DNA of 57,238 nucleotides from NCBI GenBank assembly GCA_001723645.1, contig MDLC01000015.1, forward strand, positions 1 through 57,238. The letters run 5' to 3'. Below the pieces are notes generated by a model. It saw nothing but the letters and a program-made list of their open reading frames with translations. It did not search any database and was not told the DNA's origin. This document shows, piece after piece, positions 36,317-52,310 of the stretch. The translations under genes and the position numbers were made by a program. How positions within the stretch are numbered: the stretch's first letter is position 1; the number at the start of each line of letters is the position of its first letter. Source of the stretch: Candidatus Endobugula sertula (GTDB taxonomy: Bacteria > Pseudomonadota > Gammaproteobacteria > Pseudomonadales > Cellvibrionaceae).

Positions 36317-36862
36317 TTAATTAGTTACCACGCAATCCAGGGGTACATCCCAAGGTTCTGGAGTAATTTTACGCACTTGTTGAAAATAATAGGCCACCCC
36401 CATCATCAGTGCACGACGTTTAGAACCACCCCTTTCAAAGGTTTTATCATAGTAGCCCCCTCCCATACCAATACGGTGATTGTACTTATCAAAAGCAACT
36501 AATGGTGTTAGTACCAGATCCAAACTGCAGGCTGCAATAATACTGCCAGAGACTGGCTCTAAAATTCCATATTTATTAGACTCTAGTGGTGTGGTGGGCG
36601 TGTAGTTGACGAAAGCCAAACGCTCCTTTTCTATAACGGGCAAATAACAGGTTTTTCCTTGACTCCAGGCTTTTTTCAACAGAAAACCAAGACCAATTTC
36701 ACCTTCGTTAGCTAGGTAAAAAGCAATATGACGACTTTCTCGATAAATCTCAGTCTGTAATATGTTCATAGCCAACTCATAAGAGGCTCGTTTTTGAGCA
36801 CCCTGGCCTACAGCACAACGTCGCCGACGCATATTTTGTCGAATAGCATTAGCTGGCAACAC
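36317..36862 (-). CDS. ygfA: 5-formyltetrahydrofolate cyclo-ligase
   Basis: IRQ..R.RR N-terminus, a GMGGGYYD motif, and synteny downstream of ssrS. Confidence 0.88.
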   Translation of the reverse strand: MLPANAIRQNMRRRRCAVGQGAQKRASYELAMNILQTEIYRESRHIAFYLANEGEIGLGFLLKKAWSQGKTCYLPVIEKERLAFVNYTPTTPLESNKYGILEPVSGSIIAACSLDLVLTPLVAFDKYNHRIGMGGGYYDKTFERGGSKRRALMMGVAYYFQQVRKITPEPWDVPLDCVVTN

Positions 36863-36964: not shown

Positions 36965-37145
36965 ACAGGAAAGTATCCCAAGAATGCCGCTGTCATAATG
37001 GCCTTGAACCGTGAAGTTCAAGTGGTGGTCTCTGGCAAGCATTAGGCTTTCCGTAGTACGGACATGCACACCAACAAGCACGAGAAACCTCCGGAAGTTG
37101 TAATATCGGCTCAAGGACGATGACTGGCAAACACCTCAGGACTCA
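36965..37145 (-). ncRNA. ssrS: 6S RNA
   Basis: The minus strand contains blocks matching remembered E. coli 6S RNA: CCTTGAGCCGATATT, GTTGGTGTGCATG, GGAAAGCCTAA and CTTGAAC..GGTTCAAGG. The termini are complementary. The conserved zapA-ssrS-ygfA synteny holds. Ends are approximate. Confidence 0.85.
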
Positions 37146-37189: not shown

Positions 37190-37471
37190 TTAAAGAGAGA
37201 GAATCTTTTCCACTCGATTGCACATGTCGTTAACCAGCTCTTGGTCCAGAGGTTCATTGCGCTGAGATAAATGTAACACCTCGTGGGCAAGATTCAATGC
37301 TGCCATTACCGCGATTCGCTCAACACCAATAACATTACCAGACTGGCGGATAGTTCTCATGCGATTATCAAGCTCAGTGGCCGCTTTCAACAAAGAATCA
37401 CGCTCTTCGCTGGGACAGGCAACTTGGTAATCTTTATCCAAAATATGTACAGAAAGAGTTTCTCTTGACAT
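37190..37471 (-). CDS. zapA: Cell division protein ZapA
   Basis: 93 aa. VHILDKDYQVACPSEERDSLLKAA..LD..M is typical of ZapA. Lies upstream of ssrS. Confidence 0.88.
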   Translation of the reverse strand: MSRETLSVHILDKDYQVACPSEERDSLLKAATELDNRMRTIRQSGNVIGVERIAVMAALNLAHEVLHLSQRNEPLDQELVNDMCNRVEKILSL

Positions 37472-38330: not shown

Positions 38331-38987
38331 ATGACAATAGTTAACTGGAACAAGATTGATACGGTTATGCTAGACATGGATGGCACACTGTTGGATCTGC
38401 ATTATGATACATACTTTTGGACGAATCATTTGCCTCAACGTTACGCTGAACTTAAACAGATTCCCGAAACCGAAGCAAGACATCGTTTAAATACTCATAT
38501 CCGTTCATTGAAAGGCACTTTAAACTGGTACTGCCTCGACTATTGGGCAACAGAGCTAGACATTAATATTCTCACCCTCAAAAGGGAGATCAAAGAACGC
38601 CCTTATACAAAGGAATTTTTGCAATTTTTGCAGGTCCAAAAAAAGCAGGTGGTATTAGTCACTAATGCCCATCCGGTTGGTCTTAATATAAAGCTGGGTG
38701 AAACGTGCATTGGAGATTATCTCGATCATATTATTTCATCTCATCAGTTTAGTGAACCCAAAGAAGCCCAGGCATTTTGGCATCACTTACGAAACCACTT
38801 CCCCTTCAATAGCCAACGCACTTTGTTTATTGATGACAATCTGACTATTCTAGAATCAGCTAAAGCCTATGGTATTGCTTATATACTGGGTATCCATCAA
38901 CCTGACAGTCAAATTGAGCGCCAACTTGAAGGGATACCTGCCATCTATCACTTTAATGAAATCATGCCCGATAAGGCTATCGACTAA
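38331..38987 (+). CDS. HAD-superfamily hydrolase (YrfG-like nucleotidase)
   Basis: Motif I MLDMDGTLLD, VLVTNAH and FIDDN. 218 aa. Confidence 0.8.
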   Translation: MTIVNWNKIDTVMLDMDGTLLDLHYDTYFWTNHLPQRYAELKQIPETEARHRLNTHIRSLKGTLNWYCLDYWATELDINILTLKREIKERPYTKEFLQFLQVQKKQVVLVTNAHPVGLNIKLGETCIGDYLDHIISSHQFSEPKEAQAFWHHLRNHFPFNSQRTLFIDDNLTILESAKAYGIAYILGIHQPDSQIERQLEGIPAIYHFNEIMPDKAID

Positions 38988-39161
38988 CGGGTTGTGCACC
39001 TCATGATTATGCTTTTCACTTGGTGCTTACGTAAGTATTGTGGCAAGCGATTTATTTTGTTACGAACTAATATGGATGCTCTCGCTAAAGACGTTGATTC
39101 ATCCCCCGATGATTACCAGTGGGAAAGGGCTGACCGCTTTAAAGTCGTTATCACTAAGGCG

Positions 39162-39326
39162 TTAAGACGACTTGAGATTAAAAACCAGTGCTCGAATGCC
39201 TACCTGAAATTGCACTTTCTTTAAATCTCGATAACGAACGTGTTTGTTGCGATGCGCAAACACATGTTCATAAGATGATCGCATCGCAGAAAACCAGCCA
39301 TCCTTACGACGATCTTTTCCTTTCAT
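39162..39326 (-). mobile_element. IS5/IS1182-type (DDE) transposase C-terminal remnant
   Basis: Hand translation ...MKGKDRRKDGWFSAMRSSYEHVFAHRNKHVRYRDLKKVQFQVGIRALVFNLKSS* fits the R..vEhvF...K.....RyRgL.K.......l.a...NL tail of these transposases. No catalytic domain lies upstream. Confidence 0.5.
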
Positions 39327-39440
39327 ATTGTTCTTTTGGGTCGTCGCGTTGTGGCAGCCTTTGTGCTTGAGTGCTCATAACCGTTCTCCTTTTTGTGTCG
39401 CTTTTTTGATACGGTAGAAAGTTGGATACTGCTTATTTAT

Positions 39441-40397
39441 CTATACGTTTATGCAATACCATTGAGGTGTTTTAATCGCCTGTAAATATCGCTTCGACTG
39501 CTTATCCCTTTGTAGAAACATGGGTGATTCATTCGTCACTTCAAAACCAAACTGTTTCGGTAAGCTGGTATACATTGACTTTGGCGGCAAGTCATAAATT
39601 TTTTTAATCTTTCGTCCTGTATCAAAGGTATGATAATAAATGATAGAAATTCCCAGTTCATTGCGAATAAAACGAATGGCTGCCGCTAATGATAATTCAG
39701 CCCAAAGCGTTTTATAAGGTTTTAGAATGACCTCTGCATATTCTTTAATATCTCCATATTCACAATGAATGCCATTAATCACATCGCCGGGTTTTGCCGT
39801 GTTTTCCTTGGAGAGATGTTTGTTTACGTGCTCCAGATCTCTATTGACGTCGCGTAACCAATCATTTTGCACCTCCTCAATTAATGCTTCCCCAGTAGAT
39901 AAATCTGCATCGATTCTTACCCATGACAAGGTTTTACGATAGCCCCTTCTAATAGGGTGACCTCTAAACTCAAATGGACCGTAGTTATCTGAAGGCTTTA
40001 ATAAGCGGTGATACTCCTGATTGTGCTTATTATCAAAATTAATTTGCAACACCAAATTCTGCTGATTTCTCGAAGTCTGGTCGTAGTCTCTGTCACCCTC
40101 CCCCCAGCGATCCAATGTTAGAGTAAAGGCCAGCGTGCCTTCATTCCAGTAAAGTGACACATCATCCTTGGTCAACATACCGTTACCACAACGTTTAGTA
40201 ATATTTTTCACTATAGGCTTGGTGGAAAAGCGTTGTAAAGGCGGCTTGTTTAACTCGCGTACTTGTAAGCTTTGCCTTTTGTTGTTTTCCATATACCAAT
40301 TAATCATATCTAAACAATAGCGGTCTTTAAGATAATAAAAGACTCTTCTTTCGTCACCTAAGCAATCGAGTATTTCGTCTAATTCTTTCTGTTTCAT
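39441..40397 (-). CDS. Uncharacterised protein, paralog A of the rtcB-prfH-linked gene
   Basis: 318 aa. Colinear with ORF 41581..42474: [104 protein letters not shown]. Confidence 0.7.
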   Translation of the reverse strand: MKQKELDEILDCLGDERRVFYYLKDRYCLDMINWYMENNKRQSLQVRELNKPPLQRFSTKPIVKNITKRCGNGMLTKDDVSLYWNEGTLAFTLTLDRWGEGDRDYDQTSRNQQNLVLQINFDNKHNQEYHRLLKPSDNYGPFEFRGHPIRRGYRKTLSWVRIDADLSTGEALIEEVQNDWLRDVNRDLEHVNKHLSKENTAKPGDVINGIHCEYGDIKEYAEVILKPYKTLWAELSLAAAIRFIRNELGISIIYYHTFDTGRKIKKIYDLPPKSMYTSLPKQFGFEVTNESPMFLQRDKQSKRYLQAIKTPQWYCINV

Positions 40398-40677
40398 AAT
40401 AGTACTTCTGATAGGAACATCTGATTAACCGATAAATATTTACTGAAGTATTTGTAAATGGGTCAATCTAGATAGTATTACATTCAATGTTTCACATTTT
40501 CTTATCGCTACTCAAGCGATAAGTCATTTTAGACAATTCTCACCTTTTAAACTGATAACAAATAGCGTTTAGTCAGTACTCAATTGGCTAAAGAGCACTT
40601 CATAAATACCGCCTGCGCATTTTTAGCCAAATTGTTATAGCGCACTTTCCGATATCCAAATGGTGACGTTCCATTAA

Positions 40678-41022
40678 ATGACAAAATTTACAAATGGTCG
40701 TCTCATCAGCGACTATCTCGCGCTGAGGCTTTGGGATAAAAAGGTTCAATGGTTTTACAAAGTGCTGACCAAGATAGAATCTCGTTCATTGGCTCCAGAA
40801 ACATCTCTTTGCGAGTCTTCTTACGACATTTTTCAAATTCTTGGTAAAATTGGCGGGCATAAAAAACACCGTAATTTAATGCGAATGATTTCAGAGCAAC
40901 AAAAAGCTATTGCTGAAATAAAAGCGGCGATGATTGCCGATGAGGATTTCGCGGAGAAATTCGCGGCTGAATTATTGGATGAACAAACCTATAAAAAAGT
41001 CATGTCTATCTTTGTACCGTGA
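40678..41022 (+). CDS. Hypothetical protein
   Basis: 114-aa ORF. Its stop overlaps the next ORF's start. No family recognised. Confidence 0.4.
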   Translation: MTKFTNGRLISDYLALRLWDKKVQWFYKVLTKIESRSLAPETSLCESSYDIFQILGKIGGHKKHRNLMRMISEQQKAIAEIKAAMIADEDFAEKFAAELLDEQTYKKVMSIFVP

Positions 41023-41255
41023 GAGGGCTTTTTGCTAACCCCCTTCATAGTGAACCAGAAGAATTAAAGGATCGGAGTTTGCCTGAAAGTCCTTTGGTGG
41101 AGGAGGATGATCCTGCCTTGGCACATTTGACCTATGAGAAAAAGGTCGAGGTGATTAAATCGTTATGGAAGATGATGTCATTGATGGTTGATATGGCGTG
41201 GGGCCTGGATAGTACACAACAATCTTTAACCGAAACCTTCCGTGGAACTGGGTAA
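41019..41255 (+). CDS. Hypothetical acidic protein
   Basis: 78-aa ORF, coupled to the preceding ORF. Confidence 0.35.
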   Translation: MRGLFANPLHSEPEELKDRSLPESPLVEEDDPALAHLTYEKKVEVIKSLWKMMSLMVDMAWGLDSTQQSLTETFRGTG

Positions 41256-41306
41256 GATTCTGGAAGTGTGGTACGACTAAAAGATAGCAAAAGGAGGGTA
41301 AAGAAT

Positions 41307-41390
41307 ATGGCAGAAGTCACAAAAGCATTAATTTATTGCCGTGTATCCAGTAAGAAGCAAAAGCAAGGGGACGGCTTGGAGTCAGGAACA
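41307..41390 (+). pseudogene. Serine recombinase N-terminal remnant
   Basis: A strong RBS aaggaggg precedes MAEVTKALIYCRVSSKKQKQGDGLES, which carries the catalytic-Ser motif Y.RVSS..Q of resolvase/large serine recombinases. Similarity ends after about 28 aa. Confidence 0.5.
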
Positions 41391-41580
41391 CCGCCGCCAG
41401 ACCTTACAAAAAATGAAAGCTTGTTATTGAGGAAAAAGCGGCGAATTCGGTCAAACCGCAGCGAGGTCGTGACGATACTTATATGTTCATGGCACCATAA
41501 GTTGGCCACCTTTTGACACCATAGATTGGCCGTTTTGTATAATATTTGTTCATTTGGTGCGTTTGTCTCCTGATCATACT

Positions 41581-42474
41581 CTAAATTGATAGGCGATACC
41601 ATTGGGTATTTTTAATAGCCTTTAGATATCTCCTAGCTTTTTTGTGTTGTTCTAAAAACCTAGGACTTTGACTGGTTACTTCAAATCCAAATTGCTTTGG
41701 TAACTTTGTGTACATAGATTTGGGCAGCAATCCGTAGATTTTCTTAATTTTTCGCCCTGTGTCAAAAGTATGATAATAGATGGTCGAAATACCCAGCTTG
41801 TTGCGGATAAATTGAATAGCCGCTAGTAGTGAGAGTTCCGCCCATAATCTCTTATAAGGCTCTAATATGACTTCAGCATAGTGTTTAAATTCATTATACT
41901 CACAGTCAATACCATGGATAATATCGCCGGGTTTTACTGTGTTTTTCCCAGCATAGCACCTTGTAACACGCTGCATATCCCAGGTAACTCTACGGATCCA
42001 ATCATTTTGTACCTCTTCAATTAATGCTTCTCCTGTCGTAGGATCAAAATCTATTCTTACCCAAGATAATGTTTTGCGGTTATTTTGCCTAATAGGATGC
42101 CCTCTATATTCAAATGGGCCATAGCTATCATAAGGTTTTAGTAAACTATGGTAGTGTTGGTTATGTTCATTGCCAAAATTGATTTGTAAAACCAGATTTT
42201 GCTGATTTCTAGGTGTTTGATCATAACCTCTTTCGCTGTCACCCCACCGATCAAGTGTTAATGTAAAAGTTAATACATCATTGGGCCAGTAAGATTTAAG
42301 ATTATCTATTGGTAAATAACCATTGCCGCATCGTTTGATAATGTTTTTAACAATCGGTTTTGCGGCAAATAACTCTAAATAATAGCGATCCTTAAAATAA
42401 TGAAAGCCCCTTCTTTCATTACCTAAGCAATACAGTACATCCTCTAAATATTTACTCGTTAAAATCTCTACCAT
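41581..42474 (-). CDS. Uncharacterised protein, third gene of the rtcB-prfH operon (paralog B)
   Basis: 297 aa. The start overlaps the prfH stop by 23 nt. Shares long identical blocks with 39441..40397 but lacks about 25 aa near the N-terminus. Confidence 0.75.
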
Positions 42475-43135
42475 AAAAAGTACGTATAGGTTTACCCCTT
42501 TGCACTTCGTAGTGCTGTGACCATCGTGAACGTTCGAGTGATTTATTTTCTAAATCGTTTTGATTTGCCAGCAATAGTTGCAAACGCTCTAATGCGATTT
42601 GCTTATTTCTATGCTGGGAACGGTCTGATTCAACACGCACTTTTAAACCAGTTGTGCGATGAGTGATACGAACCGCACTATTGGTCTTATTGACATGTTG
42701 ACCACCTGGCCCTTTTGACCGCATAGTCTCCATATCGACTTCCTTCACTAATTCGTTGAACGTCTTCATACTATTACTAGGCATTGATAATGTCGCAATA
42801 CCCACGAACCAGTTGATGCGTTTATGCTTAGGTCGATAAGGGCTTTCACCTTGCCATTTAATAGTTCCTTGCCATTTATGAGCAAACCCATCAACCCCTT
42901 TGCCTTCTAAGCGGATCAATATCGACAAAAATGCATCAGGCTCAATCAATGTCTGATTTCGCAATAACTTATCAAATGCTAAGCTCTCAACGATTTCAGC
43001 AGACAGATTTTCTCTGTATGCTTCATCCAATAGAACTCGACTGAGCTGAGCAATAACCCAGCCGCATTCTTTAGGGCCTTGACCAGCCGTCAGTTGTAGC
43101 CATACAACTGACGATTTTTTATGCTTTGTTTCCAT
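42452..43135 (-). CDS. prfH: Peptide chain release factor H (PrfH)
   Basis: 227 aa. The RF-like GGQ domain reads [20 protein letters not shown] without a codon-recognition domain of RF1/2 size. Lies 2 nt downstream of rtcB, as in known rtcB2-prfH pairs. Confidence 0.88.
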
Positions 43136-43137: not shown

Positions 43138-44373
43138 TTATGTTCTCCGTGTTTTATAGGTGAGTAATGGTTTAAAGGTTGCAACGATATCAACCATACC
43201 GGCTTCCGCTAAGTCGCTCACCACCTGACTAATATTTTTGTAGGCTTGTGGGGCCTCTTCATAAAGTAGATCTCTTTGCTTACAAATAACACGGCTACCT
43301 AGTGAAGTTTTCTCTAAGTCTTTTACCTTAAAACGCTTTTCTAAGCGGCCTCGAGCATCACTGCGTTTCCATTTTCGGCCTGCACCATGTGCTAGAGAAA
43401 AACCTCCAAGAGCCAATGCACTTAGCTCATTAACTCTAGGTTTAACAAGATAACTTAAACTACCTCGAGATCCAGGTATCATTACTAAGCCCTTATTCGT
43501 TGGGCTTGCACCTTTACGGTGTATCCAATAACGTCTTTCTGAATCGATGTCTGACTTTGCGGCTGATTTTGCAGAAAGCCCCATTAGCTCAGTCTCAACA
43601 CTTGATAAAGCTTCAACCATATTGTGGGTGACATCGAACAAATAGCGTTGCTTTGTCTTTAACTGCTGACAAAAACGTTCTGCAATAAGTTCTCGATTTG
43701 CTTCAGCCCAACGGATAGCGTAATTGTGACGTTTTTGATACTGTTCATACTGATATTCATCTTGTATGGTTTCTAATGATTTTGAACCTAGGTTATCAAC
43801 ATGATCGCGAAGTATTTTTTGCCCTAAACCTCTAGAGCCGCTATGTACGAGTAAAAACACATGCTTTTTATCAATACCTAATCCATCAAATACATCACTA
43901 TCAATAATCTCATGAATCTGTTGCAATTCAGCAAAGTGATTATCGCCACCTATTGTTCCTAACTTGTGATGCTCTGTTAATGAAAAATCACCTTCAATTA
44001 TTAGACTGCGATCGCCCAACCATTCTTCCCTATTGCCATTCCATAGTTCATCAAGCCCAACAAGTTGTTTTTCCCATTTGTCTAATTTGACCTTTCTGGT
44101 CGGAATATCTAATTGCCATAAACCCATGCCACAACCAATATCACTACCCACCATATGGGGGTAGATACAGTTTTCCGTTACAAAAGCGGCGCCAATGGGT
44201 TGCCCTTTTCCTGGGTGTAGATCTGGCATACCAATACCGATACGCATACCCGGTAATTCCATTGTTTTTTTCAGCTGCGTAATGGCAGCGTCTTCTAACC
44301 AATTTTTGTCAGAGCTAATAATGCTCGTTCGACGATCCTCAGCTGTTTCGATATTTTTAAATAAAGTACTCAT
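43138..44373 (-). CDS. rtcB: RNA 3'-phosphate/5'-OH ligase RtcB (PrfH-associated type)
   Basis: [35 protein letters not shown] and HGAGR motifs. 411 aa. Confidence 0.93.
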
Positions 44374-44725: not shown

Positions 44726-44938
44726 TTAGCTATAAGAAGCTTGGCGCCCGCCTTCCGGTACCTTTGTTCGCATTTTATGGACTTGTGAATAAGCATATCC
44801 CTTAAATTTCGCCCAGCAGCCTTTATGCAAGAATAATTGTCTTTTCTCTCTTACCATTTCGCCAACCGCTGTACTGTATAAAACACAGTTTCGAGGTACA
44901 AATAAAGAATCGATAATATATTGTGTTTTACTACCCAT
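44726..44938 (-). CDS. Small basic hypothetical protein downstream of cca
   Basis: 70-aa ORF. No family recognised. Confidence 0.3.
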   Translation of the reverse strand: MGSKTQYIIDSLFVPRNCVLYSTAVGEMVREKRQLFLHKGCWAKFKGYAYSQVHKMRTKVPEGGRQASYS

Positions 44939-44978: not shown

Positions 44979-46241
44979 CTATTGAGGAGCTATCTTATAC
45001 TGTGCCATATACCGCTTAATACTACCCAAACGTAACCGACGAATTTTCTCTGCTAATTTAAGGCCTTCATAGCCTTCACTTAGTAATGGCTTGATATTGG
45101 TATCTATAGCAACCTGGTTGTATTCGATTAACAATTGAGATTGAGGGTAATCTCTTTGCTCTAATCCTAAACGACCCCTAGCATCCGCTTCACAGGCTTG
45201 CGCAAAGTAACGTACACGTTCTGGTCGCCTGAACCCATCTAGTGCTTCCAATAGCTTTAATACCGATTTGGGACGCATTTCTAATAACTTATGACAACGT
45301 AAATGATGCTCTGACACTAGTTTTGCCAAGGTGCGAAAGTCTTTCGGTACTTTATAACACTCACATACTTTCTCAACTAAAGGTACACCTTTAATTTCAT
45401 GGCGAATATGACGAGGCCACTCTTCTTCAGGGGTAAGACCTTTACCCAAATCATGCATTAGTGCAGCCCAGGTCACGATTAGATCATCAAAACGCTCTCT
45501 GGCAATGTCCACGACCATCATCACATGATCACCCGTATCCACTTCTGGGTGATGCTGTGGGGGTTGCGGAACACCAAATAAACAGTCTAATTCTGGCATT
45601 AAAACCTCCAATGCACCACAGGCACGGAGCACTCGGAAAAACTCACTGGGCCGAGGCTCGGTTAATGCTCGAGACATTTCCTTCCAAACACGTTCCGGTG
45701 TTAATTCAGCAAGCTCGCCATTGTTAACCAAGTGCTTCATTAATTCTAATGTATTGGGATGCACTTGAAAATCTAACGTGGCATAACGTGCAGCAAAACG
45801 GGCTACTCTTAATACTCTCAATGGGTCATCAGAGAATGATTCTGAAACATGTCGTAAGACTTTATTATTTAAATCGGCTCTACCGTTAAACGGATCAACA
45901 TATTTACCTTCTAATGTCAGCGCAATGGCATTAATCGTAAGGTCTCTCCGAGATAGATCTTCTTCAAGTGTAACCTCGGGGCTAAAATCACAAACAAAGC
46001 CAGTGTGCCCCTTACCTGATTTTCTTTCAGTACGAGCGAGAGCATATTCATCCTTAGTTTCTGGGTGTAAAAAACAGGGAAAGTCGTTACCTATTTGTTG
46101 ATAGCCTTGCTCTATAAGCATTTCTGGAGTCGCACCGATGACTACCCAGTCATGATCTGCAACTGGGCGACCTAATAGCTTATCGCGTACCGCTCCACCG
46201 ACTAAATAAGCCTGAACACCAGTATTCTGTATATTTTCCAT
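44979..46241 (-). CDS. cca: Multifunctional CCA-adding enzyme (class II nucleotidyltransferase with HD domain)
   Basis: YLVGGAVRDKLLGRP..D.DWVV, ARTERK and RDLTINA, plus a C-terminal HD-domain region (LMHDLGK). 420 aa, like E. coli Cca. Confidence 0.92.
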   Translation of the reverse strand: MENIQNTGVQAYLVGGAVRDKLLGRPVADHDWVVIGATPEMLIEQGYQQIGNDFPCFLHPETKDEYALARTERKSGKGHTGFVCDFSPEVTLEEDLSRRDLTINAIALTLEGKYVDPFNGRADLNNKVLRHVSESFSDDPLRVLRVARFAARYATLDFQVHPNTLELMKHLVNNGELAELTPERVWKEMSRALTEPRPSEFFRVLRACGALEVLMPELDCLFGVPQPPQHHPEVDTGDHVMMVVDIARERFDDLIVTWAALMHDLGKGLTPEEEWPRHIRHEIKGVPLVEKVCECYKVPKDFRTLAKLVSEHHLRCHKLLEMRPKSVLKLLEALDGFRRPERVRYFAQACEADARGRLGLEQRDYPQSQLLIEYNQVAIDTNIKPLLSEGYEGLKLAEKIRRLRLGSIKRYMAQYKIAPQ

Positions 46242-46987
46242 TATATTGTTACGACTAAGTTCTCATTAAAGTTTGGGTTATAGCTATCTGGATAACCTCT
46301 TGGATTACAAATAATACGGCAGTTACCTATGGAGTAATCATAACTTTGGTGCAAATGACCGTGAATCCAAAGATTTGGACTGTACTCCAAAATAAAATCA
46401 TCTAAATCAGATACATAGGCAGCGCTCGTCATATCGCTTGCCTTTTTCTCTGAAAGAGACATTCTACTAGGGCCGTGGTGACTTATAACAACATTTTTAT
46501 ACCCTTTATAAGTGGTTAGTTCACGTTCAAGCCAATGAAGTGAATGTTTATGGATAATAGCCGTATCTATCGACCTTAATTTTGAGTACTTGGGAGAAAC
46601 TCGAATCTTCTTGTAGTCATTCATTATCTGTTGACAGTGAAAACCTGCAATCCGAGGATCGCCAAAAAGCTCAAAATCTGTCCATAATGTACAGCCAAAG
46701 AAATTAATATTACCTAAAGTAACCAACTCTTTTTCTAAAATATGAATGTTTGTGTCTTTAGCCATCGCTTTCATTTCATGAATATATTTCGGATACGCTT
46801 TACCGTAAAATTCATGGTTGCCTAGTACATATAAGACGGGTTTATCAGGTATATTTTTTAATGCCCACTCTATTCCTTTTCCTTTTACATGGATATCACC
46901 AGCAAGAATGACAATGTCACACTCCGGCAAGGTTAGTTCCAAATTAGCAAACTCTATATGTAGATCACTTAATATTAATAACTTCAC
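46241..46987 (-). CDS. Calcineurin-like metallophosphoesterase
   Basis: LSDLHIE, AGDI, GNHEFY, HHGP and GHLH motifs. The stop overlaps the cca start (TAATG). Confidence 0.85.
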   Translation of the reverse strand: MKLLILSDLHIEFANLELTLPECDIVILAGDIHVKGKGIEWALKNIPDKPVLYVLGNHEFYGKAYPKYIHEMKAMAKDTNIHILEKELVTLGNINFFGCTLWTDFELFGDPRIAGFHCQQIMNDYKKIRVSPKYSKLRSIDTAIIHKHSLHWLERELTTYKGYKNVVISHHGPSRMSLSEKKASDMTSAAYVSDLDDFILEYSPNLWIHGHLHQSYDYSIGNCRIICNPRGYPDSYNPNFNENLVVTI

Positions 46988-47023
46988 GTTATACTTCTGA
47001 TAGTTTTTTCATATGTAAAGGGT

Positions 47024-47048
47024 AAAACCGCCAGCAAGCTGACGGTTA
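47024..47048 (-). terminator. Probable terminator after the SPFH gene
   Basis: aaccgccag-caag-ctgacggtt hairpin (8 of 9 bp), followed on the minus strand by a short TTTT run. Confidence 0.5.
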
Positions 47049-47052
47049 TCGG

Positions 47053-48207
47053 TTAAGCCTTTTTAGGGGCTAGAGTTACAAGCTCGTTAAGCACACCGCC
47101 TAAACCACCGTAAACAGAAATCTTATCGATTTGACCGGTAATTTTTTCGAGTGCTTCTAACTCTTTCAAGCGAAGCAATACTGGATTATTTTCCATCATC
47201 TTAGCAGTATTATGTAACGAACGCATAGCTTGAGTTTCCTCGCGGCGTTTGATCAAGTTAGCTTCAGCTTCTTTTTGTGCTTCAACCACTTGATTCAAGA
47301 TTTGCTTCATATCACCCGGCAAGATAATGTCTTTAACACCAACATTGACCAGCTCAATACCATAGTTAGCTAATTTTTCGCGAGTCGCTTGGGTAATCAC
47401 TGTGTTAAGTGTATCTTTATCTTCCAACAAAGTATCCAGTGATTGTGTACCCACCGCTTCACGCAGGCTTAACTGCAGCTCGCGATAGATAAAACCAGCA
47501 TAATCATTCACTTTTAAAGCGACGATTTCTGGATCTTTCACTTTATAGCTAGCGCTTAAGTTAATACGCAGGCTCACACGATCCTTTGTTAAAATTTTTT
47601 GACCACTTACCTCAACAGCTTGTAAGCGTAGATCTAATAGCTTAACACCAACAGAACGATTGTATTTCCAGAAGCCATAATTTCCAGGCTTTAAAATACT
47701 CTCGAGCTTACCATTAACGTTTAGAAGGCCGACGTGTTCATCTGGCACTTCTGCGTAAAGAATGGCATTAACTACTTCTCGGCTTTGACCTACTGTTAGG
47801 CCTCGACCTAGTAGATTAATCAACGACTTATCGATTTGGTAGTTCTCACTGATATCAATAATATCAACACGAACATCCTCTACATTTTTCCAAACGGTTA
47901 AAACAGAACCTGGTGCGAGCACACTAGCCAGCTTGTTATCTCGATACAGCAAACCGACTTCAGAGTCTTTAAGGTTAAACTGTTCAAGATAAGGTGCTAA
48001 TTTATCTGCATATTGAGTCATTAGGAACTGTGCTTTACGGTTCTTAAATAACACGTCGGTAATGTCATGAACGTCTACTGCCACTCGGCCTTGTGGGGTC
48101 GATACTCGGTGTCGACCTGGACCTAGTACACGTTTAAATTGATCACGCACATACAATAGAGCACGTTGATGATCAGCAATATCAATTGTCTTCCAGAAAA
48201 TCATCAT
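47053..48207 (-). CDS. SPFH/band-7 domain protein (slipin-like)
   Basis: 384 aa. A central SPFH-type region and a C-terminal coiled-coil QKEAEANLIKRREETQA. Confidence 0.85.
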   Translation of the reverse strand: MMIFWKTIDIADHQRALLYVRDQFKRVLGPGRHRVSTPQGRVAVDVHDITDVLFKNRKAQFLMTQYADKLAPYLEQFNLKDSEVGLLYRDNKLASVLAPGSVLTVWKNVEDVRVDIIDISENYQIDKSLINLLGRGLTVGQSREVVNAILYAEVPDEHVGLLNVNGKLESILKPGNYGFWKYNRSVGVKLLDLRLQAVEVSGQKILTKDRVSLRINLSASYKVKDPEIVALKVNDYAGFIYRELQLSLREAVGTQSLDTLLEDKDTLNTVITQATREKLANYGIELVNVGVKDIILPGDMKQILNQVVEAQKEAEANLIKRREETQAMRSLHNTAKMMENNPVLLRLKELEALEKITGQIDKISVYGGLGGVLNELVTLAPKKA

Positions 48208-48494
48208 TTTCTCCTTATAGCTGGCATCATAAAGATGCCTTTTATGAATAGGCGAGGCCCACTTGGTTTTAACGCGGTCGATAATTTGAATAGCCTAGGT
48301 CACTTATCTCAGCGGCTTGTTGCGCGGTTATCTTCACCCTGAAGAACAACATCCGTGTATGCTTTCCTTAGCGAATAACCGTGGTTCAAGCATAAAATAA
48401 TGACGTAAACGATTAACCCATCATCAACGGTATTAAAACCATTGCTAGCTAATCTATAGAAGCCTTAACCAGCAGTGAGCCTCTAGTGTTTTAT

Positions 48495-48541
48495 TGGTAA
48501 CAAACCAAGGGGATTCGAACCCCAGACTTTCGTCTTACCCA
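48495..48541 (-). other. tRNA 3'-half-like fragment (T-arm plus ..ACCA), no 5' half
   Basis: The minus strand reads TGGGTAAGACGAAAGTCTGGGGTTCGAATCCCCTTGGTTTGTTACCA. It directly abuts the CCA end of tRNA-Met. No complementary 5' acceptor strand was found. Confidence 0.45.
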
Positions 48542-48618
48542 TGGTGTTTTTGGCAGGATTCGAACCTGCTACCCATCGATTATGAATCGATTGCTCTACC
48601 CGTATGAGCTACAAAAAC
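48542..48618 (-). tRNA. tRNA with CAT anticodon (Met, or Ile if lysidine-modified), CCA encoded
   Basis: Hand fold: GTTTTTG TA GCTC ATACGGGTA GAGC A ATCGA TTCATAA TCGAT GGGTA GCAGG TTCGAAT CCTGC CAAAAAC A CCA. Confidence 0.85.
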
Positions 48619-48984
48619 CTATGCGTTGGAGGCATAGTTGTTTAGCGGGCTAGCGAATCGGTACACAGGACATTAAAAATGGCTGTGCCAGCCTGGCATA
48701 CGGAACCAGAGACACTGTTTCGTTAACTTGCGCATAAACATCGGTATGGAGTTAGACGCCAAAAAAGCGCCAAACTCCAAATACTTATCATCGAATATCG
48801 GAAACAACACTAAGGTGTTTGCCTTTTTCCTTATCGTACTCGGCAATTTCCATTTCTCCGTCAATTGGCGCTATTGTTACCAAATGATCAATTCGTGAAT
48901 ACATCTCTCCATGGTAGGCTTTTAGCTCGCCTTTTCCATTTTCATATCCTCATTGCTTATGAACTAAAGCCAATACAGTTTGGT

Positions 48985-49536
48985 TTAGCCACTCTTCCAT
49001 TTTCGTTGACTAGAAAATTGTTTAGTCAGATAGTCCATTTGATCGGCAATAATATGCCGATTAGTTAAATACAAATATTCAAAAGGATTCGGCGTAAACG
49101 GAACCGCTAATAAAAGCATATTTGCTTGTTCCGGTGTACGATTGCCTTTTGCATGATTGCAGCGCTTGCAGGCGGCCACGACATTTGTCCAACTATCGGC
49201 TCCACCTTGAGCACGCGGTACCACATGGTCACGGGTTAGTTCCTGTGCAAAAAATATTTGGCCGCAATATAAGCACACATAATTATCTCGACGAAATAAC
49301 ATAGCATTGCTAAATGAACGGACCTTCATACTTTTTCCGTGACCTTTAGTCGCAATCACTGGAGAAATATCAAGCATAGAACGTTCGCCATCGCGGTTGT
49401 AACCGCCCCGCATTAAGGCACCTTGTTCACCCATTTCCCACAGCACAAGTTTTTTGCTGTAAAGGGTTGTAGCAGCCTCCACTAATAGCCAATGCATCGG
49501 CATACCAGAGGGATTTAGGCGTAGTACTTTTTTCAT
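48985..49536 (-). CDS. HNH endonuclease
   Basis: CLYCG...TRDHVVPRAQGG..SW.NVVAACKRCNHAKGNRTP is a classic HNH-Cys4 motif. 183 aa. Confidence 0.88.
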   Translation of the reverse strand: MKKVLRLNPSGMPMHWLLVEAATTLYSKKLVLWEMGEQGALMRGGYNRDGERSMLDISPVIATKGHGKSMKVRSFSNAMLFRRDNYVCLYCGQIFFAQELTRDHVVPRAQGGADSWTNVVAACKRCNHAKGNRTPEQANMLLLAVPFTPNPFEYLYLTNRHIIADQMDYLTKQFSSQRKWKSG

Positions 49537-49578
49537 TACCTTGCGCCAAAAAATAAATCCATATGTGAATACACCAGC

Positions 49579-49875
49579 CTAATAGTATTTAATAAAGTTC
49601 ATACCATCAGCCGAGCGATAACCATTTGTTTCTAACAAATGGATCATCGCTTGTCGTTTTTGTAATTGCCTTTCTGTAACAACTACATAAAGCGGCATCA
49701 ATTGTTGATGGAGTGCCCATGTCAACAATTGGTGCCCATTTTCGCGACCAACTAAATAGTGATCCACATATAGCTGGGTTACACTATTTTTAAGCAATTG
49801 CTTTTTTGCTTTTCTTGCATCGTCACAGAAAACATCTGCGAAACGGTTTTGATTTTTGCTAACAGATAAACGCAT
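49579..49875 (-). CDS. Hypothetical protein inside the tRNA array
   Basis: 98-aa ORF, 33 nt downstream of tRNA-His. No family recognised. Confidence 0.45.
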   Translation of the reverse strand: MRLSVSKNQNRFADVFCDDARKAKKQLLKNSVTQLYVDHYLVGRENGHQLLTWALHQQLMPLYVVVTERQLQKRQAMIHLLETNGYRSADGMNFIKYY

Positions 49876-49908
49876 AATCCCTCCTGTGAGCTAGTGAGAA
49901 TATTTAGG

Positions 49909-49980
49909 GGTGACCGATGGGACTCGAACCCATATATACTTGAGCCACATTCAAGCGCATTACCGATCTGCCACGGCCAC
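49909..49980 (-). tRNA. tRNA-His (GTG), no encoded CCA (CCT) and no G-1
   Basis: Hand fold: GTGGCCG TG GCAG ATCGGTA ATGC G CTTGA ATGTGGC TCAAG TATAT ATGGG TTCGAGT CCCAT CGGTCAC C. Followed by CCT, and position -1 is T. Confidence 0.75.
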
Positions 49981-50011
49981 ACCTAAATATTCTGGGTAAT
50001 AAGAAATAATT

Positions 50012-50086
50012 TGGTCCGCCCGGTAGGATTTGAACCCACACCTGTCGGCTTAAAAGGCCGATGCGCTACCATTACGCCACGAACGG
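50012..50086 (-). tRNA. tRNA-Lys (TTT), CCA encoded
   Basis: Hand fold: CCGTTCG TG GCGT AATGGTA GCGC A TCGGC CTTTTAA GCCGA CAGGT GTGGG TTCAAAT CCTAC CGGGCGG A CCA. Confidence 0.85.
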
Positions 50087-50091
50087 AAAAT

Positions 50092-50170
50092 TGGCACCTG
50101 ACACAGGACTCGAACCTGCATCTCCCCGCTTCGTAGGCGGGTGCTCTAAATCCAATTGAGCTAATCAGGC
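50092..50170 (-). tRNA. tRNA-Arg (ACG), CCA encoded
   Basis: Hand fold: GCCTGAT TA GCTC AATTGGATTTA GAGC A CCCGC CTACGAA GCGGG GAGAT GCAGG TTCGAGT CCTGT GTCAGGT G CCA. Confidence 0.85.
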
Positions 50171-50176
50171 AAAATT

Positions 50177-50250
50177 TGGAGCCCAATACAGGACTCGAAC
50201 CTGTCTCTACTGCTTACAAGGCAGTTGCACAGCCGCTATGCCAATCGGGC
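50177..50250 (-). tRNA. tRNA-Thr (TGT), CCA encoded
   Basis: Hand fold: GCCCGAT TG GCAT AGCGGCT GTGC A ACTGC CTTGTAA GCAGT AGAG ACAGG TTCGAGT CCTGT ATTGGGC T CCA. Confidence 0.85.
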
Positions 50251-50290
50251 AAGTTAAGAAATTTTGTGAAATAAAAGACTGGAATCCTTT

Positions 50291-51487
50291 CTAGCCTTTT
50301 ACGTTGACGATTTGACGAAGCGTATGAACAACGTCAACAAGATCAGTTTGGTTATCCATAACATCATCAATTGGCTTATACGCCATGGGAATCTCATCGA
50401 TTACACCTTTGTCTTTACGGCATTCAATCCCCTCTGTTGCAGATACAAGATCACTTACAGAATAGGTTTTTGCAGCCGCAGTTCGACTTAGGCGACGTCC
50501 AGCGCCGTGAGAGCAAGAACAGAACGATTCTGATTCACCTTTACCACGAACAATAAAACTTTTATCGCCCATAGACCCAGGAATAATACCCAAATCATCT
50601 TTTCTTGCGCGGATAGCGCCTTTACGTGTAACCCATACGTTTTTACCAAAATGGTTTTCCTTTTCCACATAGTTATGATGACAATTGATGGCTTCTTGAG
50701 TGACCGCAAACGCTGGAAGATGTTTACGTAGCTCCATCATCACTGCATTCATCATATGTGTACGATTCAATGCAGCATAATCTTGCCCCCAAGATACTGC
50801 TTCGATGTAATCATCGTAATATTCTGATCCTTCAGATAGATAAGCCAAATCTTTATCGGGCAAATGGATCATCCATTTTTCCATTTCACGTTTCGCGATC
50901 TCGATAAAATGCATTCCAATTTTATTACCGATACCACGGCTTCCTGAATGCAGCATAATCCATACGTCTTGATTTTCATCCAAACACAACTCGATAAAGT
51001 GATTCCCTGAACCTAGCGTACCTAACTGCTTTGCAAAGGCATCATACTTAATACGTTTACTTATTTGAGGATGCTTCTCGAAGATAGTACTTAAACGCAT
51101 TGAAATATCATGGCCACCTGCAATTTTAGGGTCACGATGTTTTCCGCCTGCCCCCAAAGGCACAACAGATTCAATACGACTGCGAATAGCTTTCAAATTA
51201 TCAGGCAGATCTTTTGCCTTTAGCGATAGACGCACGGCATTCATACCACAACCAATATCCACGCCTACTGCAGCAGGGATAATCGCTTTATCGGTCGCGA
51301 TTACTGAACCCACAGTCGCTCCTTTACCCAAATGAACATCTGGCATTGCTGCTACATGTTTATAGACAAAGGGTAAATTCGCTACTCGGCTTAATTGTGC
51401 CTGTGTGTTGTAATCAATATCATCTGTCCAGATTTTTACAGGCACACGCTGATCTTTATGCGTTGCCAATACTTTTTTAATGGTCAT
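50291..51487 (-). CDS. rtcB: RNA ligase RtcB embedded in the tRNA array
   Basis: MPDVHLGKG, GVDIGCGM, GSGNHFIELC, HSGSRGIGN, HNY and HGAGR motifs. 398 aa. Lies 30 nt downstream of an oversized tRNA-like gene and 40 nt upstream of tRNA-Thr. Confidence 0.95.
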   Translation of the reverse strand: MTIKKVLATHKDQRVPVKIWTDDIDYNTQAQLSRVANLPFVYKHVAAMPDVHLGKGATVGSVIATDKAIIPAAVGVDIGCGMNAVRLSLKAKDLPDNLKAIRSRIESVVPLGAGGKHRDPKIAGGHDISMRLSTIFEKHPQISKRIKYDAFAKQLGTLGSGNHFIELCLDENQDVWIMLHSGSRGIGNKIGMHFIEIAKREMEKWMIHLPDKDLAYLSEGSEYYDDYIEAVSWGQDYAALNRTHMMNAVMMELRKHLPAFAVTQEAINCHHNYVEKENHFGKNVWVTRKGAIRARKDDLGIIPGSMGDKSFIVRGKGESESFCSCSHGAGRRLSRTAAAKTYSVSDLVSATEGIECRKDKGVIDEIPMAYKPIDDVMDNQTDLVDVVHTLRQIVNVKG

Positions 51488-51517
51488 AATTGCCTCCTTT
51501 AGTTATTTTATAATGAC

Positions 51518-51658
51518 TGGTTGGAGGTATAGGAATAACCTAAGCGCGTCCTGCGCTTAGCCTTTCAGATGCAAAGCAGTTCAAAATGCTCCCGGCATTT
51601 TGTCGAACCCATCTCGCCGGGGCAAAAACCCGGTGCTCAGCCACTAAGCCAACCTCCA
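51518..51658 (-). tRNA. Oversized (141 nt) tRNA-like gene with a 74-nt T-loop. The 7-nt anticodon loop reads TTTTTGC (UUU). CCA encoded.
   Basis: Hand fold: TGGAGGT TG GCT TAGTGGCTG AGC A CCGGG TTTTTGC CCCGG CGAG ATGGG [TTCGA CAAAATGC-CGGGA-GCATTTTG AACTGCTTTGCATCTGAAAGG CTAAGCGC-AGGAC-GCGCTTAG GTTATT] CCTAT ACCTCCA A CCA. Acceptor pairs 7/7 and T-stem 5/5. Confidence 0.6.
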
Positions 51659-51668
51659 GTTAAGTAAT

Positions 51669-51818: not shown

Positions 51819-51824
51819 ATAAAT

Positions 51825-51902: not shown

Positions 51903-51910
51903 AATAAATT

Positions 51911-52052: not shown

Positions 52053-52057
52053 TTAAT

Positions 52058-52133: not shown

Positions 52134-52138
52134 AATTT

Positions 52139-52293: not shown

Positions 52294-52310
52294 AAAATAG
52301 TTATTCAGAT

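What the first reader, a model, noticed from the sequence alone, without database searches (positions are those of the whole stretch)
39441..41580. Second, diverged copy of the operon's third gene, separated from it by mobile-element debris
**The second copy.**
- ORF 39441..40397 (318 aa) is colinear with 41581..42474 and shares many identical blocks.
- It has about 25 extra residues near the N-terminus (DMINWYMENNKRQSLQVRELNKPPLQRFS).
- It stands alone, without rtcB or prfH.

**What lies between and beside the copies.**
- Two small coupled ORFs.
- A serine-recombinase gene cut off after about 28 codons, despite a strong RBS.
- An IS5-type transposase tail on the far side (39162..39326).

**Inference.**
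- Two cassettes may once have been present, with one later eroded.
- Alternatively the gene family may be diversifying, which is typical of conflict systems.
Basis: partly seen in the sequence, partly recalled or inferred. Interest (0 to 1): 0.55.

Follow-up and report, generated by a model that had tools for sequence, protein, structure and literature searches.

The report
Two old copies of RtcB-partner gene
A bryozoan symbiont carries two intact, long-diverged copies of an unnamed gene that in many bacteria sits next to the RNA-repair ligase RtcB; the stand-alone copy is the normal form and the operon copy is the altered one, so this is an old gene pair in a decaying locus, not a fast-evolving conflict gene.

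Summary
ORFs 39441..40397 (318 aa) and 41581..42474 (297 aa) are paralogues: 62% identity, E 3e-148, one 25-residue gap.

Every other family member has those residues, so the operon copy carries a deletion. That copy has also lost its own start codon and the spacer with a small leader ORF that relatives keep between prfH and this gene. It now starts inside prfH.

- **Context:** 57 of 80 related genome loci place the gene next to an RtcB ligase, 21 as rtcB-prfH-X and 36 as RtcB-X. None of the 80 has a second copy within 8 kb.
- **Age and selection:** synonymous sites are saturated and dN is 0.22, so selection was purifying, not diversifying. The copies form a near-polytomy with two relatives.
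- **Between the copies:** two IS5-family remnants, a serine-recombinase stub and orphan ORFs. There is no trace of a second rtcB or prfH.

Best reading: an old tandem duplication kept under selection, later invaded by mobile elements.

The parts
39441..40397 (-). X copy 2: stand-alone, canonical 318-aa member of the RtcB-associated, GNAT-fold family
41581..42474 (-). X copy 1: operon copy of 297 aa, with a unique 25-residue deletion in the N-terminal domain and a start codon inside prfH
   Evidence: Searches show the deletion is unique among more than 170 members. Leu replaces a Pro that is 99% conserved. Its ATG lies in the conserved 'FYG' codons of prfH, with a 23-nt overlap. The model has pLDDT 84.8, falling to 62-65 around the deletion.
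42452..43135 (-). prfH, release-factor homologue H
   Evidence: TIGR03072, E 4.9e-62, above the curated cut-off. Pfam RF-1 domain.
43138..44373 (-). rtcB2, the PrfH-linked RtcB RNA ligase
   Evidence: NF007153 at E 3e-151 and TIGR03073 at E 2e-131. Pfam RtcB.
44726..44938 (-). Internal fragment of an RlaP nucleotidyltransferase gene (pseudogene remnant)
   Evidence: About 60 aa are 88-97% identical to the intact 300-308-aa RlaP proteins of L001, L002, L003 and L008. The rest of the gene is missing. The direct Pfam RlaP match is only weak, E 0.18.
41268..41516 (+). Serine-recombinase stub. The ATG at 41308 follows a strong ribosome-binding site, and homology ends after about 28 codons
   Evidence: Sequence. 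IS607 transposase model E 1e-3. PHROG integrase E 2e-4. The canonical YxRVSSxxQ motif is seen directly in the sequence.
40678..41255 (+). Two overlapping orphan ORFs (114 and 78 aa), probably not genes
   Evidence: No Pfam, NCBIfam or PADLOC match, and only a sub-threshold PHROG match for orfA (E 0.051). orfA has no match in phages, plasmids or viral contigs, and the DNA of both ORFs has no match in plasmids. Its only hit among 5.8 billion proteins is itself.
40580..40780 (-). Internally deleted IS5-family remnant. An N-terminal piece ('DETTICKFCHLMERHHL') and a C-terminal tail ('FGYRKVRYNNLAKNAQ') lie in different frames
   Evidence: Six-frame translation. The same IS5 model, NF033581, matches at profile positions 75-96 (E 0.14) and 258-283 (E 0.027). 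The best plasmid hit is an annotated IS5 transposase, E 0.8. An independent assembly breaks here. Support is weak but coherent.
40439..40523 (.). 85-nt repeat containing a 9-bp hairpin, just 5' of copy 2. A second copy lies at 5163..5246
   Evidence: 76% identity, E 1e-11. Alignment. Hairpin.
39162..39326 (-). IS5/IS1182-family transposase C-terminal tail
   Evidence: NF033551 at E 8.6e-5. DDE_Tnp_1_6 at E 5e-3. tblastn E 4e-10. An independent assembly breaks here.
50291..51487 (-). Second, canonical RtcB (398 aa) inside a tRNA array. It belongs to the type that sits next to X in other genomes
   Evidence: Pfam RtcB E 1.7e-129. 27% identical to RtcB2. 55-64% identical to 31 RtcBs that sit next to X.

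Best explanation
**What the gene is.** I call the gene family X. Both ORFs are intact members of it. X has no Pfam or NCBIfam model, is about 318 aa long, and combines a small N-terminal domain with a GNAT-like core. In many bacteria it is a conserved neighbour of RtcB RNA-ligase repair modules.

**Which copy is the normal one (shown).**
- The stand-alone copy (39441..40397) is the canonical form.
- The operon copy (41581..42474) is the derived one. One deletion removed the prfH-to-X spacer, its small leader ORF and X's own first codons, so X1 now starts at an ATG inside prfH.
- A second deletion removed 25 structured residues of the N-terminal domain.

**How the pair arose (inferred).**
- An old tandem duplication of X took place downstream of rtcB2-prfH, roughly when this lineage split from its nearest sampled relatives.
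- Both copies were then kept under purifying selection, and the operon copy evolved about 1.5 times faster.
- Much later, IS5-family elements and a serine-recombinase element inserted between and beside the copies and then decayed.

**What X does (inferred from context only).**
- X acts with RtcB on damaged ribosomal or transfer RNA, as a substrate-binding or group-transfer accessory factor.
- The full-length copy 2 probably supplies the canonical activity from its own 5' region.
- Copy 1 would be a trimmed version made by coupling to prfH translation.
For: **Paralogy and direction of change**
- 62% identity, E 3e-148.
- The 25-residue segment is present in every other member.
- It is well folded in the copy 2 model, with pLDDT 95-96 over residues 31-55.

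**Junction with prfH**
- Relatives have a gap of about 45-240 nt between prfH and X, about 120-150 nt in the closest ones.
- About half of them, the gammaproteobacterial subclade, carry a leader ORF with a conserved N-terminal motif in that gap.
- In the window, X1's ATG lies in the conserved 'FYG' codons of prfH. Homology to X begins at the prfH stop codon.

**Age and selection**
- Nei-Gojobori dS is undefined because of saturation, and dN is 0.217.
- Copy 2 against L082 gives dN/dS 0.089, and copy 2 against L081 gives 0.077.
- Conserved columns are kept in both copies.

**Relative rate and tree**
- Copy 1 has 33-35 unique changes against 23-25 for copy 2 with outgroups L001-L003. With outgroup L046 the counts are 33 against 15.
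- My four-point check on the identity matrix gives an internal branch of about 0.015. Copy 1, copy 2, L081 and L082 therefore form a near-polytomy.

**Position and composition**
- The copies lie on the same strand, 1183 nt apart.
- GC3 is 0.31 for copy 1, matching rtcB. Copy 2 has 0.40, within the window background of 0.364 plus or minus 0.049.

**Link of the family to RtcB**
- 57 of 80 loci have an adjacent RtcB.
- X identity tracks RtcB plus PrfH identity with r = 0.946 over 153 locus pairs.
- An RbfA-like gene (PF02033, E 1.5e-10) precedes RtcB in 14 loci.

**Fold**

**Mobile debris**
-.
- An independent assembly breaks at both IS remnants.
Against: **Against a simple in-lineage duplication**
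- In the neighbour-joining tree the two copies are sisters in only 3 of 200 bootstraps. Copy 2 pairs with P0002 (locus L082) in 128 of 200.
- Copy 2 is more similar to the L081 copy than RtcB and PrfH divergence predicts, by 8.7 points or 2.3 SD.
- Copy 2 is bracketed by IS remnants in the same orientation, and its GC3 is 0.09 higher than that of the operon genes. These points fit a horizontally acquired copy.
- No other genome among the 80 loci keeps two linked copies (maps). An old duplication would therefore need repeated loss elsewhere.

**Gaps in the functional argument**
- No expression data exist. No consensus promoter was found upstream of copy 2.
- The function of X is inferred from gene neighbourhood alone.
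- The acetyl-CoA motif of GNAT enzymes is absent.
- 23 of the 80 loci have X without any RtcB nearby.
Confidence: 0.5

Rival explanations
1. Copy 2 is a xenologue. It was taken from the rtcB-prfH-X operon of a related bacterium and brought in, or moved, by IS5-family or serine-recombinase elements. Copy 1 is the vertically inherited operon member.
For: - IS5-family remnants lie on both sides of copy 2 in the same orientation, and a recombinase stub lies nearby.
- Homology to relatives covers only the ORF, from 8 nt upstream to 6 nt downstream.
- Copy 2 groups with P0002 (locus L082) in 64% of bootstraps.
- Copy 2 is unexpectedly close to the L081 copy.
- GC3 is 0.40 against 0.31 for rtcB and copy 1.
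- Copy 1's fusion to prfH is most simply a deletion within the resident operon.
Against: - An independent arrival landing 1.2 kb downstream of its own paralogue, on the same strand, would be a coincidence of roughly 1 in 1000 in a genome of a few Mb, unless homology guided it.
- X is absent from 72,556 plasmids, 50,697 phages and 2.9 million viral contigs.
- Solo X genes elsewhere sit among housekeeping genes.
- The GC3 difference is within about 1 SD of the background.
- Nucleotide identity of copy 2 to L081 (73%) is barely above that of cca (71%).
Confidence: 0.25
2. A whole second rtcB-prfH-X cassette once stood here, through segmental duplication or a second acquisition. Its rtcB and prfH were later removed by IS-mediated deletion, leaving copy 2.
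For: - The closest relative of copy 2, locus L082, shows this intermediate state. An HNH gene is followed by a 33-residue PrfH tail, the leader ORF and an intact X.
- The window locus is visibly decaying: an RlaP fragment and IS debris.
Against: - No RtcB or PrfH similarity at E up to 10 anywhere in 38901..41600.
- No homology to the prfH tail, spacer or leader ORF upstream of copy 2.
- The 1183-nt gap is filled by unrelated debris and is shorter than rtcB plus prfH, which span about 1.9 kb.
- No locus among the 80 shows two cassettes. The one apparent case, L018 and L031 from one metagenome bin, is 86% identical in DNA and probably reflects mixed strains.
Confidence: 0.15
3. One copy is a pseudogene in the making, and the pair has no functional meaning. 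Copy 1 is the likelier candidate, given its N-domain deletion, its lost start and leader ORF, and the Pro-to-Leu change at a 99% conserved site.
For: - Copy 1 has unique lesions and evolves somewhat faster.
- Model confidence is lower around the deletion.
- The neighbouring RlaP gene is already a fragment.
- X is broken by frameshifts or stops in L008 and L022 although their rtcB and prfH are intact.
Against: - Copy 1 is an open frame of 297 codons.
- It keeps all 30 invariant residues of alignment A1.
- Its dN of 0.22 against saturated dS implies long purifying selection.
- The deletion is in frame, and a usable ATG overlapping prfH was retained.
Confidence: 0.1

Closest known systems
RtcB2-PrfH ribosome rescue and repair module (E. 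coli ATCC 25922; PMC9304027, PMC9223846, PMC13166195)
   Same: The window has the same two core genes in the same order and tightly packed. They match the PrfH-specific models TIGR03072 and TIGR03073 / NF007153.
   Different: The described module has two genes. Here, and in 20 other loci, a third conserved gene X follows prfH, and here it is present twice. The papers I could read do not describe X.
Accessory genes reported around RFH(PrfH)-RtcB systems: a TPR protein, a Pol-beta nucleotidyltransferase, zinc-ribbon proteins and charged-helix proteins (Burroughs and Aravind 2019, PMC6514570)
   Same: The principle is the same: extra genes gather around the core pair in a counter-conflict RNA-repair system.
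GNAT (GCN5-related N-acetyltransferase) superfamily, including ribosomal-protein acetyltransferases RimI, RimJ and RimL and aminoglycoside acetyltransferases
   Different: No sequence-profile match to any acetyltransferase family at E up to 1, and none to any PDB sequence at E up to 10. The Q/R-x-x-G-x-G/A pyrophosphate loop after strand 4 is replaced by 'Q-N-D-W-L-R'. There is an extra 85-residue N-terminal domain and a helical insert.
Pnkp-Hen1 RNA repair (an analogy from my own knowledge, not tested here)
   Same: It is a repair ligase system that carries a dedicated modifying enzyme next to the ligase.
   Different: Hen1 is a methyltransferase with a known role. No chemistry is established for X, and there is no sequence or fold relationship.

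Membership tests
RtcB2-PrfH repair operon | An RtcB ligase of the release-factor-linked subtype | tested here: met
   NF007153 at 503.5 bits (cut-off 407) and TIGR03073 at 438 bits (cut-off 272).
RtcB2-PrfH repair operon | A PrfH release-factor homologue immediately downstream on the same strand | tested here: met
   TIGR03072 at 209 bits (cut-off 167). rtcB ends at 43138 and prfH starts at 43135.
RtcB2-PrfH repair operon | Rescue and religation of ribosomes whose 16S rRNA has been cut in the decoding centre | not testable with these tools
   This needs biochemistry. It is known for the E. coli proteins (PMC9304027).
GNAT superfamily (for X) | The GNAT core fold | tested here: met
GNAT superfamily (for X) | The acetyl-CoA pyrophosphate-binding motif A (Q/R-x-x-G-x-G/A) between strand 4 and helix 3 | tested here: not met
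   The alignment shows '[13 protein letters not shown]' at that position with no glycines, conserved across the family. Assigning this strand as strand 4 rests on secondary-structure order, not on a superposition.
GNAT superfamily (for X) | A sequence-profile match to an acetyltransferase family | tested here: not met
   No Pfam or NCBIfam hit for either copy. None for the 45 family members at E up to 1. No PDB sequence hit at E up to 10.
Recent tandem duplicates | The copies are each other's closest relatives, with unsaturated synonymous divergence | tested here: not met
   They are sisters in 3 of 200 bootstraps, and dS is saturated.
Gene family under diversifying selection (conflict-type) | dN/dS at or above 1, or loss of constraint at conserved sites | tested here: not met
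   dN is 0.217 with saturated dS, and dN/dS is 0.08-0.09 against relatives. Copy 1 keeps 46 and copy 2 keeps 48 of the 50 conserved columns. Site-specific tests were not possible because of saturation.
IS5-family insertion sequence remnants | Similarity to an IS5 or IS1182 DDE transposase | tested here: inconclusive
   For 39162..39326: E 8.6e-5 and tblastn E 4e-10. For 40580..40780: only E 0.027 to 0.14, but both pieces match the same model at collinear N-terminal and C-terminal positions. All scores are below the curated cut-offs, as expected for fragments. No terminal inverted repeats were identified.
Serine recombinase | The N-terminal catalytic motif Y-x-R-V-S-S-x-x-Q followed by a resolvase domain | tested here: inconclusive
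   The motif is present with weak profile hits. The rest of the domain is absent, so this is only a stub.

The most novel reading that the evidence does not exclude
X would be an unrecognised third working component of RtcB-based ribosome and tRNA repair systems. It would be a GNAT-fold protein that has lost the usual acetyl-CoA loop and either binds the damaged RNA or ribosome or transfers some group onto it. Under this reading, Candidatus Endobugula sertula has kept two X paralogues for a very long time because they are specialised. The trimmed copy, coupled to prfH, would serve RtcB2-PrfH. The full-length copy would serve the second, canonical RtcB, which sits in the tRNA array 10 kb away and belongs to the type that pairs with X in 31 other loci.
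Probability: 0.15. Interest if true: 0.75.

Novelty: new variant of a known kind. Interest (0 to 1): 0.45.

Why it matters
RtcB2-PrfH is the only system so far shown to rescue and religate ribosomes cut in the decoding centre, and it is described as a two-gene module.

**What this window adds**
- A conserved third gene that has no family name. It has 915 cluster representatives at 50% identity and hits in 465 places across 185,579 species genomes.
- It travels with two different RtcB types and diverges in step with RtcB and PrfH.
- Other recurrent neighbours are an RbfA-like 30S-binding protein, Band7, HNH, the CCA-adding enzyme and RlaP.

This gives a concrete gene to test in colicin E3 or other ribotoxin protection assays.

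**The duplicate pair itself**
- It matters less. It is a natural experiment, with a full-length and an N-domain-trimmed version side by side.
- It could show what the N-terminal domain and the leader ORF are for.
- It is not evidence of an arms-race gene family.

Tried and rejected
1. **Remnants of a second rtcB or prfH.** tblastn at E up to 10 on 38901..41600 found none. Aligning the copy 2 5' flank with four prfH-to-X junctions found none either.
2. **dN/dS between the copies.** It cannot be estimated. Nei-Gojobori dS is undefined and YN00 fails, so only an upper-bound argument is possible.
3. **Which copy co-evolved with the operon.** I regressed X identity on RtcB plus PrfH identity. Both copies fit equally, with residuals -1.8 and -1.5 against an SD of 3.7, so the test does not decide.
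4. **Naming the family by sequence.** Pfam, NCBIfam, PADLOC, PHROGs, a PDB profile search and Pfam on 45 members gave nothing significant. A profile search of 1.84 billion representatives returned only the same uniform family.
6. **AFDB Foldseek.** The library was unavailable.
7. **X as mobile cargo.** It is absent from plasmids, phages and viral contigs.
8. **orfA and orfB as part of a known element.** No match anywhere.
9. **The small basic protein downstream of X as ArfA.** No Pfam or NCBIfam support.
10. **A second two-copy genome.** L018 and L031 come from one metagenome bin but are 86% identical in DNA and 91% in protein, so they are probably co-binned strains.
11. **Copy 2 inside one split IS element.** Rejected. 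The upstream remnant has its own C-terminal tail, so there are two separate remnants.
Full report
**1. Source and observation**

The window is a contig of Candidatus Endobugula sertula, the bryostatin-producing symbiont of the bryozoan Bugula (names returned).

On the minus strand lie four ORFs:
- rtcB at 43138..44373
- prfH at 42452..43135
- a 297-aa ORF at 41581..42474, here called X1 or copy 1
- a 318-aa ORF at 39441..40397, here called X2 or copy 2

rtcB and prfH match the PrfH-specific NCBIfam models above their cut-offs. X1 and X2 are 62% identical, E 3e-148, with a single 25-residue gap. DNA similarity of 70-80% stops at the ORF boundaries.

An independent Logan assembly of the same organism reproduces both genes at 100% identity. 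Its contigs break at 40602..40626 and at 39297, which are exactly the two transposase remnants described in section 6.

**2. Which copy is the odd one**

A search of 5.8 billion proteins found 95 homologues, nearly all 306-330 aa and most often 318 aa. In alignments of these, and of 80 genome loci, every member has the segment that X1 lacks. No other member has a gap of even 8 residues there.

In the X2 model (pLDDT 92.7) the segment forms part of a helix, a short strand and another helix, at pLDDT 95-96. In the X1 model the surrounding region drops to 62-65.

X1 also differs at its 5' end:
- In relatives, prfH is followed by a spacer, about 120-150 nt in the closest ones.
- In the gammaproteobacterial subclade that spacer holds a small ORF with a conserved N-terminal motif (MxYFKVPLG or MNNQQTPLG). 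In several close relatives its stop lies 47 nt inside X.
- In the window this spacer, the small ORF and X's own first codons are gone.
- X1's ATG is the 'T-ATG-G' inside the conserved Phe-Tyr-Gly codons of prfH. Homology to X starts at the prfH stop codon.
- X1 also has Leu at a Pro that is 99% conserved.

X2 is canonical in length and keeps 48 of 50 highly conserved columns. However, it too lacks the small ORF and any prfH remnant upstream.

**3. What the gene family is**

Sequence searches give no name:
- Neither copy matches Pfam, NCBIfam, PADLOC or PHROGs.
- A family profile matches no PDB sequence at E up to 10.
- None of 45 members matches any Pfam family meaningfully.
- A profile search of 1.84 billion cluster representatives finds 915 at E up to 1e-3 (477 at E up to 1e-30). 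The 150 best listed are nearly all single-domain proteins of about 300-350 aa, with a few carrying N-terminal extensions.

The core is therefore GNAT-like, but three things set it apart:
- The position where GNAT enzymes carry the Q/R-x-x-G-x-G/A loop that grips acetyl-CoA reads 'Q-N-D-W-L-R' across the family.
- There is an extra N-terminal domain of about 85 residues.
- There is a helical insert.

I do not file X as a GNAT acetyltransferase. It has the fold, and its chemistry is unknown.

**4. Genomic company**

A scan of one genome per species (185,579 species) found 465 places encoding a relative. I examined the 80 best with 8-kb flanks.

| Arrangement | Loci |
|---|---|
| rtcB2-prfH-X | 21 |
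| A different, canonical 398-aa RtcB directly beside X on the same strand | 36 |
| No RtcB within the stretch held | 23 |

They cover only the 80 loci closest to the query, so the proportion may differ across all 465.

Across 153 pairs of rtcB2-prfH-X loci, X identity tracks RtcB plus PrfH identity (r = 0.946, slope 1.08). The three genes are therefore inherited as a unit.

Other recurrent neighbours:
- Band7/SPFH
- an HNH protein
- the CCA-adding enzyme
- the RlaP nucleotidyltransferase
- an RbfA-like protein upstream of RtcB in 14 loci (PF02033, E 1.5e-10)
- a small basic protein downstream of X in 16 loci

Solo X genes sit among housekeeping genes. In L007 the gene directly downstream looks like a translational GTPase, probably release factor 3 (prfC). 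In L066 and L080 the gene upstream looks like an RsmB-type rRNA methyltransferase. Both identifications come from my reading of the sequences and were not tested.

X is absent from 72,556 plasmids, 50,697 phage records and 2.9 million viral contigs.

The literature I could read describes rtcB2-prfH as a two-gene module (PMC9304027, PMC9223846). It lists other accessory genes: a TPR protein, a Pol-beta nucleotidyltransferase, zinc-ribbon proteins and charged-helix proteins (PMC6514570). None of these fits X. The supplementary list of that paper was not available.

**5. Age, selection and origin of the pair**

Between the copies dN is 0.217 and synonymous sites are saturated. Where an estimate is possible, dN/dS is about 0.08-0.09, for X2 against L082 and against L081. 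Both copies keep all invariant residues. This is long-term purifying selection, not diversification.

Relative-rate counts show X1 somewhat faster:

| Outgroup | Unique changes in X1 | Unique changes in X2 | Significance |
|---|---|---|---|
| L001-L003 | 33-35 | 23-25 | not significant |
| L046 | 33 | 15 | chi-square 6.75 |

In a neighbour-joining tree the two copies fall in one small clade with three operon-linked relatives (P0002 = L082, P0005 = L081, and P0014). They are sisters in only 3 of 200 bootstraps, and X2 pairs with P0002 in 128 of 200. My four-point check on those distances gives an internal branch of about 0.015, which is a near-polytomy. The X1/X2 split is therefore about as old as the split of this lineage from its nearest sampled relatives, which share 76-81% CCA-enzyme identity.

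None of the 80 loci has a second X within 8 kb. The one apparent two-copy metagenome bin looks like mixed strains.

Evidence on whether the pair arose by local duplication or by horizontal transfer points both ways:
- Position favours local duplication: same strand, 1.2 kb apart.
- The IS bracket around X2 favours horizontal arrival.
- So does its GC3 of 0.40, against 0.31 for rtcB and X1.
- So does its slightly excessive similarity to the L081 copy.

I rank an old tandem duplication first (0.5), horizontal acquisition second (0.25) and an eroded second cassette third (0.15).

The eroded-cassette idea has no trace in this window. It does have a precedent. In L082, the closest relative of X2, an HNH gene is followed directly by a 33-residue PrfH tail, the small ORF and an intact X.

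**6. What lies between and beside the copies**

Reading from X1 towards X2 and beyond:
- About 190 nt of unassigned sequence.
- A serine-recombinase stub on the plus strand, with its ATG at 41308 after an AAGGAGG site. The YxRVSSxxQ motif is present, and homology ends after about 28 codons.
- Two overlapping ORFs with no homologue anywhere except the same organism.
- An IS5-family remnant at about 40580..40780. Its N-terminal and C-terminal pieces match the same model collinearly but lie in different frames, so it is internally deleted. Support is weak but coherent.
- An 85-nt repeat with a hairpin, also found at 5163..5246 just upstream of another minus-strand gene.
- X2 itself.
- A second transposase tail at 39162..39326.

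"Mobile-element debris" is a fair description.

The locus is decaying in other places too. Between cca and rtcB2 only a 60-residue internal piece of RlaP survives. It is 88-97% identical to intact RlaP proteins of relatives, which suggests a recent deletion.

**7. How it most likely works**

Shown:
- X is a conserved, co-inherited neighbour of RtcB ligases, often together with PrfH or an RbfA-like 30S-binding protein.
- It has a GNAT-like fold without the usual cofactor loop.
- Both window copies are intact and constrained.

Inferred:
- X is an accessory factor of RtcB-based repair of ribosomal or transfer RNA. It would either hold the damaged substrate or transfer a group onto it.
- In relatives, translation of X appears coupled to the upstream small ORF.
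- In this genome X1 has become coupled to prfH itself and has lost part of its N-terminal domain, while X2 keeps the full form behind a new 5' region.
- The long retention of both suggests they are not redundant.

One speculative reason rests on a second RtcB in the window. A canonical RtcB lies at 50291..51487 inside a 12-tRNA array. It is 55-64% identical to the RtcBs that pair with X elsewhere. The two X proteins might each serve one ligase.

**8. Verdict**

The gene pair is an old, constrained paralogue pair in a mobile-element-scarred, decaying repair locus.

The more valuable result is the gene family itself: an unnamed, GNAT-fold partner of RtcB repair modules. I class the whole as a new variant of a known kind, with moderate interest.

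Noticed in passing
window 50291..51487 (-), with tRNA genes 48542..52979: A second, canonical 398-aa RtcB sits inside an array of 12 tRNA genes, about 6 kb upstream of rtcB2. It is 27% identical to RtcB2 but 55-64% identical to the RtcBs that lie next to X in 31 other loci. tRNA arrays co-regulated with rtcB have been described in cyanobacteria (PMC8421152).
   Followed up: partly
window 44726..44938 (-): Only a 60-residue internal piece of the RlaP nucleotidyltransferase gene survives between cca and rtcB2. It is 88-97% identical to intact RlaP proteins of relatives, which implies a recent deletion.
   Followed up: partly
L001 7883..8032, L081 9892..10047, L082 760..912 and nine other loci: A small ORF between prfH and X has a conserved N-terminal motif (MxYFKVPLG or MNNQQTPLG). 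In several close relatives its stop lies 47 nt inside X. It may be a leader peptide that couples or regulates X translation. Three deltaproteobacterial loci carry a different conserved small ORF ending in WLNNFHTGKLLL. Both window copies lack it.
   Followed up: partly
window 40439..40523 and 5163..5246: An 85-nt repeat (76% identical) with a 9-bp hairpin lies just upstream of two unrelated minus-strand genes: X2 and a 419-aa ORF starting at 5148. It may be a shared regulatory element or a small repeat element.
   Followed up: partly
L019, L024 and L047, among 14 loci; L024 8921..9169, among 16 loci: In loci with RtcB and X but no PrfH, an RbfA-like protein often precedes RtcB (PF02033, E 1.5e-10). 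A small basic protein with the motif 'SPLLRKGGxHxKSK' often follows X, and it has no family match.
   Followed up: partly
L008 7884..8963 and L022 8004..8960; L082 628..1822: X is split into two ORFs in L008 and L022 (L022 is Sessilibacter corallicola) although rtcB and prfH are intact there. In L082 the reverse holds: X and the small ORF are intact, but rtcB and most of prfH are deleted.
   Followed up: partly
window 46241..49536 (-): Band7/SPFH (47053..48207), an HNH protein (48985..49536) and a metallophosphoesterase (46241..46987) lie next to cca. Band7, HNH, cca and RlaP recur around X and RtcB in other genomes, which suggests a larger RNA-repair super-locus.
   Followed up: partly
window 36971..37145 (-): A 6S RNA gene (Rfam RF00013, 87 bits) lies between a 93-aa ORF (37190..37471) and a 181-aa ORF (36317..36862). 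Neither ORF was checked against any family.
   Followed up: no
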